Shown piece after piece: positions 4,070 to 4,505 of a DNA stretch of 4,505 nt (within the stretch, counting starts at the first letter, position 1; each line of letters begins with the position of its first letter). Below the pieces are notes generated by a model that had not been told where the DNA came from, did no database searches, and saw only the letters and a list, made by a program, of their open reading frames with translations. Position numbers and translations under genes: made by a program. This DNA comes from a virus (lineage: Duplodnaviria > Heunggongvirae > Uroviricota > Caudoviricetes). The stretch lies in the IMG/VR virus record IMGVR_UViG_2778261503_000007. One strand, written 5' to 3'.

Positions 4070-4120
4070 CGGTTGTCTCTGCTGGCGCAGCAGGTGCCAG
4101 TTGTTCAGGCTGGCGTATAA

Positions 4121-4148
4121 AGTATAAATAAACTGGTTCCAGTGTAAA
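4121..4148 (-). promoter_or_regulatory. candidate sigma70 promoter upstream of the 92-aa ORF
   Basis: Minus strand reads -35 TTTACA (plus 4143-4148), 16-nt spacer, -10 TATACT (plus 4121-4126), about 50 nt upstream of the ATG at 4069. It overlaps the TTG-extended part of the six-frame ORF, which argues that the extension is non-coding. Confidence 0.35.
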
Positions 4149-4303
4149 GCCCCTACATTAATGGAATAAAAGTCAAACAACAGATTGTTGGGATAAACAC
4201 AACGCTTATTATTAAAAGCGATTAGATAAATTAAATTTTAATGTTATGCAATTTTACCAGATCACCATAACATCTCGTTTGAAACCACCGAAACAACAAC
4301 CAT

Positions 4304-4315
4304 ATCAATATTGAT
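4304..4315. repeat. perfect 12-bp palindrome ATCAATATTGAT (candidate operator or protein-binding site)
   Basis: The sequence is identical to its own reverse complement. It sits about 20 bp upstream of the plus-strand small ORF and immediately downstream of the minus-strand mini-ORF stop. Confidence 0.3.
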
Positions 4316-4334
4316 TATGTTAAAGTGAGTAAAT

Positions 4335-4421
4335 ATGGAAAACAACAAATCTGCACATTACGCTCCTTTTTTATCTGTGATACTTTTTGTTTTATGCTGT
4401 GTGTGGGCATTATTTTTATAA
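4335..4421 (+). CDS. possible small hydrophobic peptide (28 aa, MENNKSAHYAPFLSVILFVLCCVWALFL)
   Basis: Plus-strand ATG at 4335-4337, TAA at 4419-4421, with a weak GTGAG SD-like sequence upstream. C-terminal 17 residues are uniformly hydrophobic (transmembrane-like). Lies in AT-rich DNA divergent from the minus-strand operon. An antisense 12-codon ORF with a strong AAGGAG SD (minus 4320-4358) competes with it. Confidence 0.2.
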   Translation: MENNKSAHYAPFLSVILFVLCCVWALFL

Positions 4422-4505
4422 AAATATTGGTGATGCTGCCAACTTACTGATTTAGTGTATGATGGTGTTTTTGAGGTGCTCCAGTGGCTTCTGTTTCTAT
4501 CAGCT

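What the first reader, a model, noticed from the sequence alone, without database searches (positions are those of the whole stretch)
4100..4505. AT-rich divergent region: promoter-like element, perfect palindrome and opposing tiny ORFs, possibly a mosaic joint or type-I-toxin-like locus
Upstream of the minus-strand operon, GC content drops sharply. The region contains a sigma70-like promoter for the 92-aa ORF (4121-4148), a perfect 12-bp palindrome ATCAATATTGAT (4304-4315), a plus-strand 28-codon ORF encoding a transmembrane-like peptide (4335-4421), and an antisense 12-codon ORF with a strong AAGGAG SD (minus 4320-4358). In Qin-type prophages this position holds a hok/rel toxin module, so a small toxin with antisense control is plausible but unproven. 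The pattern could equally be a recombination joint between phage modules.
Basis: inference. Interest (0 to 1): 0.45.

Follow-up and report, generated by a model that had tools for sequence, protein, structure and literature searches.

The report
Prophage spacer, hidden small gene, IS1
This AT-rich stretch is an ordinary boundary region of an E. coli prophage, cut off by an IS1 insertion sequence, but it contains a conserved 28-codon gene for a tiny membrane peptide that the searches here did not find annotated or described.

Summary
The 12-bp palindrome and the antisense 12-codon ORF are at chance level and not conserved. The antisense "AAGGAG" is just the reverse complement of conserved Ala-Pro-Phe codons.

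Window 1-77 is an IS1 right end, so the window is probably a short-read contig broken at IS1 repeats.

Window 4087-4428 is a ~340-bp module found in 1187 of 5426 complete E. coli genomes. In close relatives a complete hokD/sok locus starts just beyond the IS1 junction. In K-12 Qin the rem gene occupies this slot instead.

Three parts of the module are conserved:
- 4087-4150, holding the promoter-like TTTACA-16-TATACT, which precedes two different operons.
- 4199-4250, function unknown.
- The 28-codon ORF (4335-4421).

The ORF is intact in 115 of 117 independently fished copies. It shows excess synonymous change (omega ~0.31, p = 0.0008). It encodes a single-helix hydrophobic peptide with no known family.

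There is no evidence for antisense control or toxicity. The verdict is a known kind of region plus a likely new small membrane-protein gene, of modest interest.

The parts
3791..4069 (-). orf92, the first gene of the minus-strand operon orf92-DUF968-RusA-Q. Function unknown.
   Evidence: It is annotated as a 279-bp hypothetical protein in RefSeq relatives. It matches phrog_1212 at E = 3e-36. There is no Pfam, NCBIfam or PADLOC hit.
4087..4150 (-). Conserved island 1. It contains the sigma-70-like promoter candidate (-35 TTTACA at 4148-4143, -10 TATACT at 4126-4121) for the downstream minus-strand operon.
   Evidence: The site matches 10 of 12 positions. The same site recurs at the same aligned position in all classes. 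Identity to the other classes is 89-97%, while the neighbouring spacer is about 56%. The island precedes either orf92-DUF968 or DUF1367-DUF1364-DUF1133. Promoter activity is inferred, not shown.
4199..4250 (.). Conserved island 2, of unknown role. It is an imperfect inverted repeat (arms 4204-4217 and 4236-4249). It may be an upstream or -35 part of the ORF28 promoter, or a protein-binding site.
   Evidence: Identity to the 73% class is 92% (48 of 52), against about 50% in the flanking spacers. The inverted repeat was found and shows no compensatory change. It is unique within 10 kb of the prophage.
4246..4273 (+). Weak candidate promoter for ORF28 (-35 ATGCAA at 4246-4251, 16-nt spacer, -10 TAACAT at 4268-4273).
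   Evidence: It matches only 7-8 of 12 positions. It recurs at the same aligned position in 9 of 10 representatives. The one copy that lacks it is L005, the only copy with a disrupted ORF28. This is inference.
4304..4315 (.). Perfect 12-bp palindrome ATCAATATTGAT. Judged to be chance.
   Evidence: 18.5% of shuffles contain such a palindrome. It is not conserved in the ~90%, ~88% or 73% classes. It has no second copy in the prophage.
4320..4358 (-). Antisense 12-codon ORF. Judged not to be a gene.
   Evidence: In the 73% class it is 9 codons long. Its frame has omega ~1.39 and contains stops in all alleles. Its SD is the reverse complement of ORF28 codons.
4325..4329 (+). Shine-Dalgarno-like GTGAG, 5 nt upstream of the ORF28 start codon. 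It reads GGTGA or GGTGG in the other classes.
   Evidence: The anti-SD duplex energy is -4.4 kcal/mol in the window allele, -5.2 in the ~90% and ~88% classes and -8.4 in the 73% class. Only 24% of all ATGs in the window reach -4.0 and 9% reach -6.
4335..4421 (+). ORF28, MENNKSAHYAPFLSVILFVLCCVWALFL. It is a conserved, unannotated 28-codon gene for a peptide with a polar 9-residue N-terminus and a 19-residue hydrophobic helix.
   Evidence: It is intact in 92 of 93 loci. It is also intact in 115 of 117 loci fished by the promoter island alone. Across 17 alleles there are 16 synonymous and 20 non-synonymous events, omega ~0.31, p = 0.0008, and it is the only frame open in all alleles. It has no indels, whereas the flanks do. 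GRAVY of residues 10-28 is 2.6. The exact peptide is absent from the 15-billion-protein collection and matches no family.
4413..4424 (.). Second 12-bp palindrome, TTTTTATAAAAA, spanning the ORF28 stop codon. Homology between the classes ends here.
   Evidence: The palindrome was found. The alignment break is seen.
4429..4505 (+). Left end of IS1 (IRL and the start of the element). It is inserted 7 bp after the ORF28 stop codon, where relatives continue into the hokD terminator. It is probably the assembly break point.
   Evidence: It is exact to annotated IS1 copies in L002 and L003. The terminal inverted repeats match at 18 of 23 positions. In CFT073 the hokD terminator stem lies at L001 5390-5373, and the junction corresponds to L001 5359/5360. 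The junction is absent from 5426 E. coli genomes and from IMG/VR.
1..77 (+). Right end of a second IS1 copy in the same orientation (context).
   Evidence: It is exact to the IS1 right ends in L002. Both flanks are exactly 77 bp. Window 78-4428 is 100% identical to one contiguous stretch in many E. coli chromosomes.

Best explanation
Window 4087-4428 is a ~340-bp AT-rich intergenic module of a Qin/Rac-like lambdoid prophage. It lies between a variable cargo slot (hokD/sok in the nearest relatives) and the orf92-DUF968-RusA-Q operon. It carries two divergent transcription units.

(1) A conserved sigma-70-type promoter at 4148->4121 probably starts transcription of the minus-strand operon near 4114. 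This is inferred.

(2) A small plus-strand gene, ORF28 (4335-4421), is probably transcribed from a weak promoter around 4246-4273. In intact relatives it is probably terminated at the hairpin it shares tail-to-tail with hokD or iteS. It is translated from a conserved GGTG-type ribosome-binding site into a 28-residue single-helix membrane peptide. The conservation and the coding signature are shown. Transcription, translation and function are inferred.

My best guess is that ORF28 is a lysogen-expressed, moron-like small inner-membrane protein, not a hok-like toxin under antisense control.

In this window an IS1 has inserted 7 bp after the ORF28 stop codon. That separates ORF28 from its likely terminator and from whatever cargo followed. 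The window ends 77 bp into that IS1, most likely because a short-read assembly broke there.

The palindrome and the 12-codon antisense ORF are chance features of AT-rich DNA.
For: IS1 and contig structure:
- Both IS1 ends are exact to annotated copies.
- Window 78-4428 is 100% identical, as one piece, to many E. coli chromosomes. No complete genome has either IS1 junction.

Module and context:
- The segment is present in 1187 of 5426 E. coli genomes, in classes of about 100, 90, 88 and 73% identity. A search with the 73% class returns the same set.
- In CFT073 a complete hokD plus sok follows directly (sok 106.7 bits).
- In K-12 Qin, a 430-bp rem module replaces this 354-bp module between homologous flanks.

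Conservation pattern:
- There are three conserved islands, separated by spacers of about 50% identity that contain indels.
- The promoter-like site is conserved in all classes and precedes two different operons.

ORF28:
- It is intact in 92 of 93 and in 115 of 117 loci.
- omega is ~0.31, p = 0.0008, and it is the only frame open in all 17 alleles.
- pN/pS is 0.25 against the 73% class, Fisher p = 0.0007-0.005.
- The SD is conserved or stronger in the other classes.
- Homology ends just after the stop codon in all three flank types.
- A bidirectional terminator follows ORF28 in the iteS context.
Against: - There are no expression data of any kind.
- No plus-strand promoter passes the standard scan. 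The best recurrent candidate matches only 7-8 of 12 positions.
- The SD of the window allele is modest, at -4.4 kcal/mol.
- An ORF of this size occurs in 75% of shuffles.
- The family is confined to Escherichia/Shigella, with only 36 substitution events to analyse.
- Two other frames that share codon positions with ORF28 also give omega of 0.36-0.42, although both contain stops.
- One natural variant, L005, has a frameshifted ORF.
- The number of promoter-like sites in the region is not above chance.
Confidence: 0.68

Rival explanations
1. ORF28 is the toxin of a new type I toxin-antitoxin pair. An antisense RNA would start from the minus-strand promoter-like site at 4341->4314. It would run across the ORF28 leader towards about 4200 and block translation or trigger mRNA decay.
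For: - ORF28 has the size and build of Ibs- or ShoB-like toxins: a short polar head followed by a hydrophobic helix that runs to the C-terminus.
- An antisense promoter-like site (TTTCCA-16-CATAAT or TATGAT, 9 of 12) recurs in the ~100, 90 and 88% classes.
- A weak hairpin followed by a T-run lies at 4220-4203 on the minus strand in the same classes.
- The locus sits beside hokD, in a slot that holds toxins and defence genes.
Against: - ORF28 matches no known toxin family in Pfam or NCBIfam, nor any PADLOC model.
- The antisense promoter and the hairpin are not detected in the 73% class, where both stem changes disrupt pairing.
- The putative antisense RNA is unstructured, z = -0.47.
- The ORF28 leader is not unusually folded, z = -1.6.
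- The -35 of the antisense site is just the ATG-GAA-AA codons read backwards.
- The count of promoter-like sites is at chance level.
Confidence: 0.15
2. ORF28 is not translated. The 87 bp are conserved for a DNA- or RNA-level reason, for example as a homologous linker that promotes module exchange at this phage boundary, or as part of a regulatory region. On this view the open frame is fortuitous.
For: - ORFs of this length are common in AT-rich DNA (75% of shuffles).
- The neighbouring islands 4087-4150 and 4199-4250 are conserved without coding.
- There is no annotation, no strong promoter, and the exact peptide is not in any protein collection searched.
- The segment is indeed flanked by different modules in different phages.
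Against: - There is an excess of synonymous change specific to the one frame that is open in all alleles (p = 0.0008).
- There are no indels in 87 nt, while both flanks have indels.
- The start codon, stop codon, length and SD are kept at 80% nucleotide identity.
- The replacements are mostly hydrophobic-for-hydrophobic within the helix.
- The module boundary coincides with the stop codon.
Confidence: 0.2
3. The palindrome ATCAATATTGAT is an operator for a phage repressor that controls the divergent promoters.
For: It is a perfect 12-bp palindrome lying between the two transcription units.
Against: - It is expected by chance in 18.5% of shuffles.
- It reads ATCAGGATTAAT in L006 (~90% class) and GTCATCATCAAT in the 73% class, so the palindrome is lost.
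- There is no second copy, even with one mismatch, in 10 kb that includes the immunity region.
Confidence: 0.03

Closest known systems
hok/sok type I toxin-antitoxin loci of prophages (hokD of Qin; hokW-sokW of Sp5, PMC8621323)
   Same: Both are small hydrophobic peptide genes in the same prophage neighbourhood. In close relatives ORF28 lies tail-to-tail with a complete hokD/sok locus.
   Different: ORF28 has no sequence similarity to Hok/Gef. The window has no sok-like RNA, no mok-type overlapping frame and no conserved folded leader. ORF28 also occurs without hok, next to iteS or tehB-like genes. In K-12 the hok module ends at its terminator and does not include ORF28.
Short hydrophobic type I toxins (Ibs, ShoB) and other E. 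coli small membrane proteins of under 50 aa, e.g. YnfS of Qin
   Same: The length is similar (about 19-30 aa), and so is the build: a polar N-terminal head and a single hydrophobic helix reaching the C-terminus. The comparison with Ibs and ShoB rests on my own knowledge.
   Different: There is no detectable homology. No alignment to YnfS was found at E <= 100, and there is no Pfam or NCBIfam family. No cognate sRNA was identified. Toxicity is untested.
Phage morons (self-contained accessory transcription units in lambdoid phages)
   Same: ORF28 is oriented against the surrounding operon, lies in a low-GC segment, borders a slot with variable cargo, and in relatives is followed by a terminator.
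   Different: Morons are typically variable additions. This unit is the conserved edge of the slot and travels with the promoter island of the downstream operon. Its own promoter is weak and only inferred.
IS1 insertions next to chromosomal hok loci (IS elements close to hokA, hokC and hokE in K-12; recalled from Pedersen and Gerdes 1999, not checked here)
   Same: An insertion sequence sits a few bases beyond the 3' end of the position where hokD lies in relatives.
   Different: Here the insertion point lies outside the hokD terminator, so the hok mRNA would be left intact. Whether hokD is still present beyond the IS1 cannot be known from the window.

Membership tests
Type I toxin-antitoxin system | A small hydrophobic toxin ORF of under 60 aa with a membrane helix | tested here: met
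   ORF28 is 28 aa, and GRAVY of residues 10-28 is 2.6.
Type I toxin-antitoxin system | A cognate antisense RNA gene, with promoter and terminator, complementary to the toxin mRNA | tested here: inconclusive
   A 9-of-12 antisense promoter-like site is found in three of the four classes, but the site count is at chance level. No terminator is conserved in the 73% class. The putative RNA folds with z = -0.47.
Type I toxin-antitoxin system | Homology to a described toxin family (Hok/Gef, Ldr, Ibs, TisB, ShoB, Zor, DinQ and others) | tested here: not met
   No Pfam or NCBIfam toxin family and no PADLOC model matches at E <= 1. The only NCBIfam hit is an insignificant one to an unrelated Borrelia lipoprotein family (E = 0.031, 14.4 bits against a cut-off of 35).
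Type I toxin-antitoxin system | Growth arrest or membrane damage on expression, relieved by the antitoxin RNA | not testable with these tools
   This needs an experiment.
hok/sok locus | A Hok/Gef ORF of about 50 aa together with sok RNA (Rfam RF01794) | tested here: not met
   Rfam finds nothing in 4100-4505 at E <= 1. The same search finds sok at 106.7 bits in CFT073, beyond the point equivalent to the window end.
IS1 insertion sequence | Terminal sequences identical to known IS1 copies, with imperfect ~23-bp terminal inverted repeats | tested here: met
   40-mers taken from the 77-bp ends match annotated IS1A and IS1B copies exactly. IRL and IRR match at 18 of 23 positions. The annotation is seen.
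IS1 insertion sequence | insA/insB' transposase genes and an 8-9 bp target duplication | not testable with these tools
   Only 77 bp of each copy lie in the window. An independent IS1 in the same segment in strain PI7 does show an 8-bp duplication, GGATAAAC.
Lambdoid mosaic module boundary | Abrupt loss of homology, with different gene modules on either side in related phages | tested here: met
   The left side carries orf92-DUF968 or DUF1367-DUF1364-DUF1133. The right side carries hokD, iteS or tehB/DUF1971-type flanks. The breaks are at about 4087 and just after 4421. K-12 Qin has rem in the same slot.
Protein-coding small ORF | Purifying selection in one frame, with conserved start, stop and ribosome-binding site | tested here: met
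   omega is ~0.31, p = 0.0008, and it is the only frame open in all alleles. It is intact in 115 of 117 loci. SD energies range from -4.4 to -8.4 kcal/mol.
Protein-coding small ORF | Direct evidence of translation | not testable with these tools
   The searches found no paper and no database entry for the exact peptide.

The most novel reading that the evidence does not exclude
ORF28 founds a new family of prophage-encoded 28-residue membrane peptides, carried by about a fifth of E. coli genomes. On this reading it acts as a membrane-active toxin or effector. For example, it could be a new type I-like toxin whose transcript converges on, and interacts with, the hokD mRNA 3' end. Alternatively, it could be a lysogen-expressed peptide that conditions the adjacent defence and cargo slot.
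Probability: 0.15. Interest if true: 0.6.

Novelty: new member of a known kind. Interest (0 to 1): 0.35.

Why it matters
Small membrane proteins and type I toxins fall below the length cut-offs of gene callers, so they are systematically missed. ORF28 is 87 nt with its stop codon, was not annotated in any RefSeq or GenBank record retrieved here, and the exact peptide is absent from a 15-billion-protein collection. Yet it is conserved in about 22% of complete E. coli genomes, including well-studied strains such as CFT073. It sits at the fixed edge of a slot that carries toxins and anti-phage genes (hokD, AbiH, IteS). If it is translated, it is a cheap and testable addition to the prophage small proteome. 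It would also be a useful landmark for locating that cargo slot. The rest of the finding (IS1 end, promoter, AT-rich spacer) is ordinary. It mainly shows that the apparent 'joint' at the window end comes from an insertion sequence and probably from the assembly.

Tried and rejected
- Rfam on the whole window at E <= 1 found nothing in 4100-4505.
- Pfam, NCBIfam, PHROGs and PADLOC gave nothing significant for ORF28 or for the overlapping 41-aa and 31-aa ORFs.
The exact-sequence look-up of three peptide variants found none.
- A full-text search for the peptide string found no paper.
- I searched IMG/VR for the exact ORF28-IS1 junction, and for the junction a simple insertion would leave on the far side. 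Both gave no hits. No complete E. coli genome has either junction. The source strain and the sequence beyond the IS1 remain unknown.
- The palindrome as a repeated operator is rejected.
- Island 4199-4250 as a repeated site or as an RNA hairpin: it is unique in 10 kb and its inverted repeat shows no compensatory change. Its function stays unexplained.
- The weak minus-strand hairpin at 4220-4203 as a conserved terminator is rejected, because it is disrupted in the 73% class.
- Homology of this segment to rem of Qin is rejected. K-12 homology stops at about 4086.
- Similarity of ORF28 to small proteins of Qin and DLP12 (YnfS, YlcH, YdfW): none found.
- The Pas sRNAs lie next to the Q and holin genes, not in this region.
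- A literature search for IteS failed because one search term was too short. I did not repeat it.

Full report
**1. What is in the sequence**

- GC content falls from 0.52-0.58 in the minus-strand operon to 0.29-0.33 across 4101-4500.
- A minus-strand sigma-70-like site, TTTACA-16-TATACT, lies at 4148->4121 and matches 10 of 12 positions.
- ATCAATATTGAT at 4304-4315 is a perfect palindrome.
- A 28-codon ORF runs 4335-4421 on the plus strand.
- A 12-codon antisense ORF runs 4358->4320, with AAGGAG 4 nt upstream.

None of these is unusual on its own.
- The count of promoter-like sites matches shuffles (3 found against 2.4 +/- 1.6).
- 18.5% of shuffles of 4087-4428 contain a perfect 12-bp palindrome.
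- 75% of shuffles contain an ATG ORF of at least 28 codons.

**2.

Positions 4429-4505 are the first 77 bases of IS1. Positions 1-77 are the last 77 bases of another IS1 copy in the same orientation. Both are exact to annotated IS1 copies.

The 4351 bp between them (78-4428) are 100% identical, as a single piece, to many E. coli chromosomes such as ZH063, SaT040 and clone D i2. CFT073 is the same but has an extra IS200C. None of the 5426 complete E. coli genomes has IS1 at either junction, and the right-hand junction was not found in IMG/VR either.

Two flanks of exactly 77 bp suggest the window is a complete short-read contig that broke in IS1 repeats at k = 77. This is inference. What follows the IS1 in the source genome cannot be known from the window.

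**3. Context in intact relatives**

In CFT073 the sequence continues past the equivalent of window 4428 into a terminator hairpin. The stem is at L001 5390-5373 on the minus strand. A complete hokD gene follows at L001 5459-5614, then a sok RNA that scores 106.7 bits.

The insertion point is 7 bp after the ORF28 stop codon and a few bases outside the hokD terminator tail.

- Homology runs through ydfU and the orf92 region up to about window 4086, at 82%.
- It resumes exactly at the hokD terminator hairpin, at 98.8%.
- Between these points K-12 has a 430-bp module containing rem, whereas this lineage has a 354-bp AT-rich module.
- The two modules are unrelated alternative cassettes in one slot.

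**4. Distribution and mosaic structure**

Window 4087-4428 matches 1187 of 5426 complete E. coli genomes, in identity classes of about 100, 90, 88 and 73%. A search with the most diverged class returns essentially the same set (1185 genomes). Among one-genome-per-species representatives, only Escherichia ruysiae and Shigella flexneri carry it.

The modules on either side vary.
- On the low-coordinate side, the segment precedes either orf92-DUF968-(RusA)-Q or DUF1367-DUF1364-DUF1133.
- On the other side there are three main flank types: hokD-type, iteS-type (an S8 anti-phage peptidase) and tehB/DUF1971-type. Further cargo includes AbiH and a P-loop ATPase.
- Homology is lost within a few bases of the ORF28 stop codon.

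The 'mosaic joint' reading is therefore right.

The AT-rich segment is also a recurrent target for insertion sequences.
- Strain PI7 has an IS1 after window 4198, with an 8-bp target duplication.
- Two viral contigs have a different element inserted near the equivalent of window 4187. I recall its end sequence as IS2.

**5. Conservation within the module**

Against the 73% class, identity varies sharply along the segment.

| Segment | Identity to the 73% class | Indels |
|---|---|---|
| 4087-4150 | 89% | 1 gap |
| 4151-4198 | 56% | 8 gaps |
| 4199-4250 | 92% | none |
| 4251-4320 | 49% | 1-3 gaps |
| ORF28 (4335-4421) | 80% | none |

Three islands are therefore under constraint.
- **Island 1 (4087-4150)** contains the promoter-like site. 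It recurs unchanged at the same aligned position in every class and in front of both operon types. This is the main argument that it is a real promoter for the downstream operon. Activity itself is inferred.
- **Island 2 (4199-4250)** is an imperfect inverted repeat. It is unique in the prophage and shows no compensatory changes. Its role is unexplained. It may supply the upstream part of a weak ORF28 promoter: -35 at 4246-4251 and -10 at 4268-4273, matching 7-8 of 12. That candidate recurs in 9 of 10 representatives and is missing only in L005, the one copy whose ORF28 is also disrupted.
- **ORF28** is treated in the next section.

**6. ORF28**

The case that ORF28 is a real gene rests on the following.
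- The frame is intact, with 28 codons and a TAA stop, in 92 of the 93 loci that contain the segment.
- It is also intact in 115 of 117 loci fished by the promoter island alone, a sample not biased towards having the ORF. The two exceptions have a foreign element inserted in the spacer.
- On a minimum-spanning tree of 17 nucleotide alleles there are 16 synonymous and 20 non-synonymous events. That gives omega ~0.31 and a binomial p = 0.0008. It is the only one of six frames open in all alleles.
- Against the 73% class alone, pN/pS is 0.25 (Fisher p = 0.0007-0.005).
- Two other frames show lowish omega (0.36-0.42). They share codon positions with ORF28 and contain stop codons.
- Most replacements are hydrophobic-for-hydrophobic within the helix.
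- A GGTG-type Shine-Dalgarno is kept at a 5-6 nt spacing. It is stronger in the other classes: -5.2 and -8.4 kcal/mol, against -4.4 in the window allele.

The peptide is MENNKSAHYAPFLSVILFVLCCVWALFL. It has a polar 9-residue head and a 19-residue hydrophobic segment that runs to the C-terminus.

It has no match to any known family.
- No family in Pfam, NCBIfam, PHROGs or PADLOC.
- The exact sequence is absent from the 15-billion-protein collection.
- It is not annotated in any RefSeq or GenBank record retrieved.
- The full-text search found no paper with the peptide string.

**7. Features that do not hold up**

- **Palindrome.** In the ~90%, ~88% and 73% classes the sequence at this position is not a palindrome (L006 has ATCAGGATTAAT; the 73% class has GTCATCATCAAT). 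It has no second copy in 10 kb that includes the immunity genes.
- **Antisense 12-codon ORF.** It shortens to 9 codons in the 73% class. Its frame has omega ~1.4. Its AAGGAG is the reverse complement of GCT-CCT-TTT, the Ala-Pro-Phe codons of ORF28.
- **Antisense control.**
  - The minus-strand promoter-like site at 4341->4314 matches 9 of 12.
  - It recurs in three of the four classes.
  - Its -35 hexamer is merely ATG-GAA-A read backwards.
  - No terminator is conserved.
  - The putative RNA is unstructured, z = -0.47.
- **ORF28 leader.** It is not unusually folded, z = -1.6.

**8. Verdict**

The region is a known kind of thing: an AT-rich prophage module boundary with divergent transcription signals, truncated by an IS1 and probably by the assembly.

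The one new element is ORF28. I judge it about 70% likely to be a real gene for a small membrane protein. I put the type I-toxin reading at about 15%. It cannot be excluded, but no defining feature beyond peptide size and hydrophobicity was met.

The overall interest is modest.

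Noticed in passing
window 1-77 and 4429-4505: Both ends of the window are IS1 ends of exactly 77 bp, in the same orientation. The 4351 bp between them are 100% identical to uninterrupted E. coli chromosomes. This looks like a whole short-read contig broken at IS1 repeats (k = 77). An IS1-flanked translocatable segment cannot be excluded.
   Followed up: partly
window 78-230 (+): The left IS1 interrupts an iraM-like gene (anti-adapter protein). 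Only about the last 50 codons remain. This follows from mapping window 78 to L001 298, inside the CFT073 IraM CDS at L001 115-450.
   Followed up: partly
window 256-445 (-): There is a strong Rfam hit to the prophage sRNA STnc100 (132 bits, E = 5e-30). A 2026 preprint relates STnc100 to the PasD sRNAs of pathogenic E. coli.
   Followed up: partly
window 1142-1391 (-): Three phage-borne tRNA genes lie downstream of the Q-like antiterminator: Arg(TCT), Arg(TCG) and a CAT-anticodon tRNA. ARAGORN calls the last one Met, and RefSeq calls it Ile.
   Followed up: no
window 4413-4424: A second perfect 12-bp palindrome, TTTTTATAAAAA, spans the ORF28 stop codon. It lies exactly where homology between the phage classes ends, and it is 4 bp from the IS1 insertion point.
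   Followed up: partly
window ~4187-4199 equivalents: L002 6130-6897; L118 and L195: The same AT-rich segment carries independent IS insertions in other strains. Strain PI7 has an IS1 after window 4198, with the 8-bp duplication GGATAAAC. Two viral contigs have an element near 4187 whose end I recall as IS2. The segment is a recurrent IS target.
   Followed up: partly
L005 1700-1840 (E. coli P276M): This is the only variant seen in which ORF28 is destroyed. It also has a rewritten end of island 4199-4250 (AATAGCCAGCGCAA in place of TTAATGTTATGCAA). This hints that the island and ORF28 are functionally linked, but it is a single case.
   Followed up: partly
L001 5873-6091 (-), CFT073, outside the window: An unannotated ORF lies just beyond the hokD/sok locus. 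It is 72 aa from a GTG start, or about 60 aa from the first ATG. It appears to have two hydrophobic segments (MKNALQFLFVAFWLFVSCMPIIF...LILIFGYINALFLGVFMAVMCIEYWR).
   Followed up: no
window 4060-4114 (-): The predicted 5' leader of the minus-strand operon folds into two hairpins. The second encloses the orf92 start codon. The fold has z = -2.45. The first stem is kept through a G-C to G-U change in the other classes.
   Followed up: partly
L001 1757-2215 compared with window ~1400-1560: CFT073 carries an IS200C between the Q-like gene and the tRNAs. The window and most other relatives lack it.
   Followed up: no
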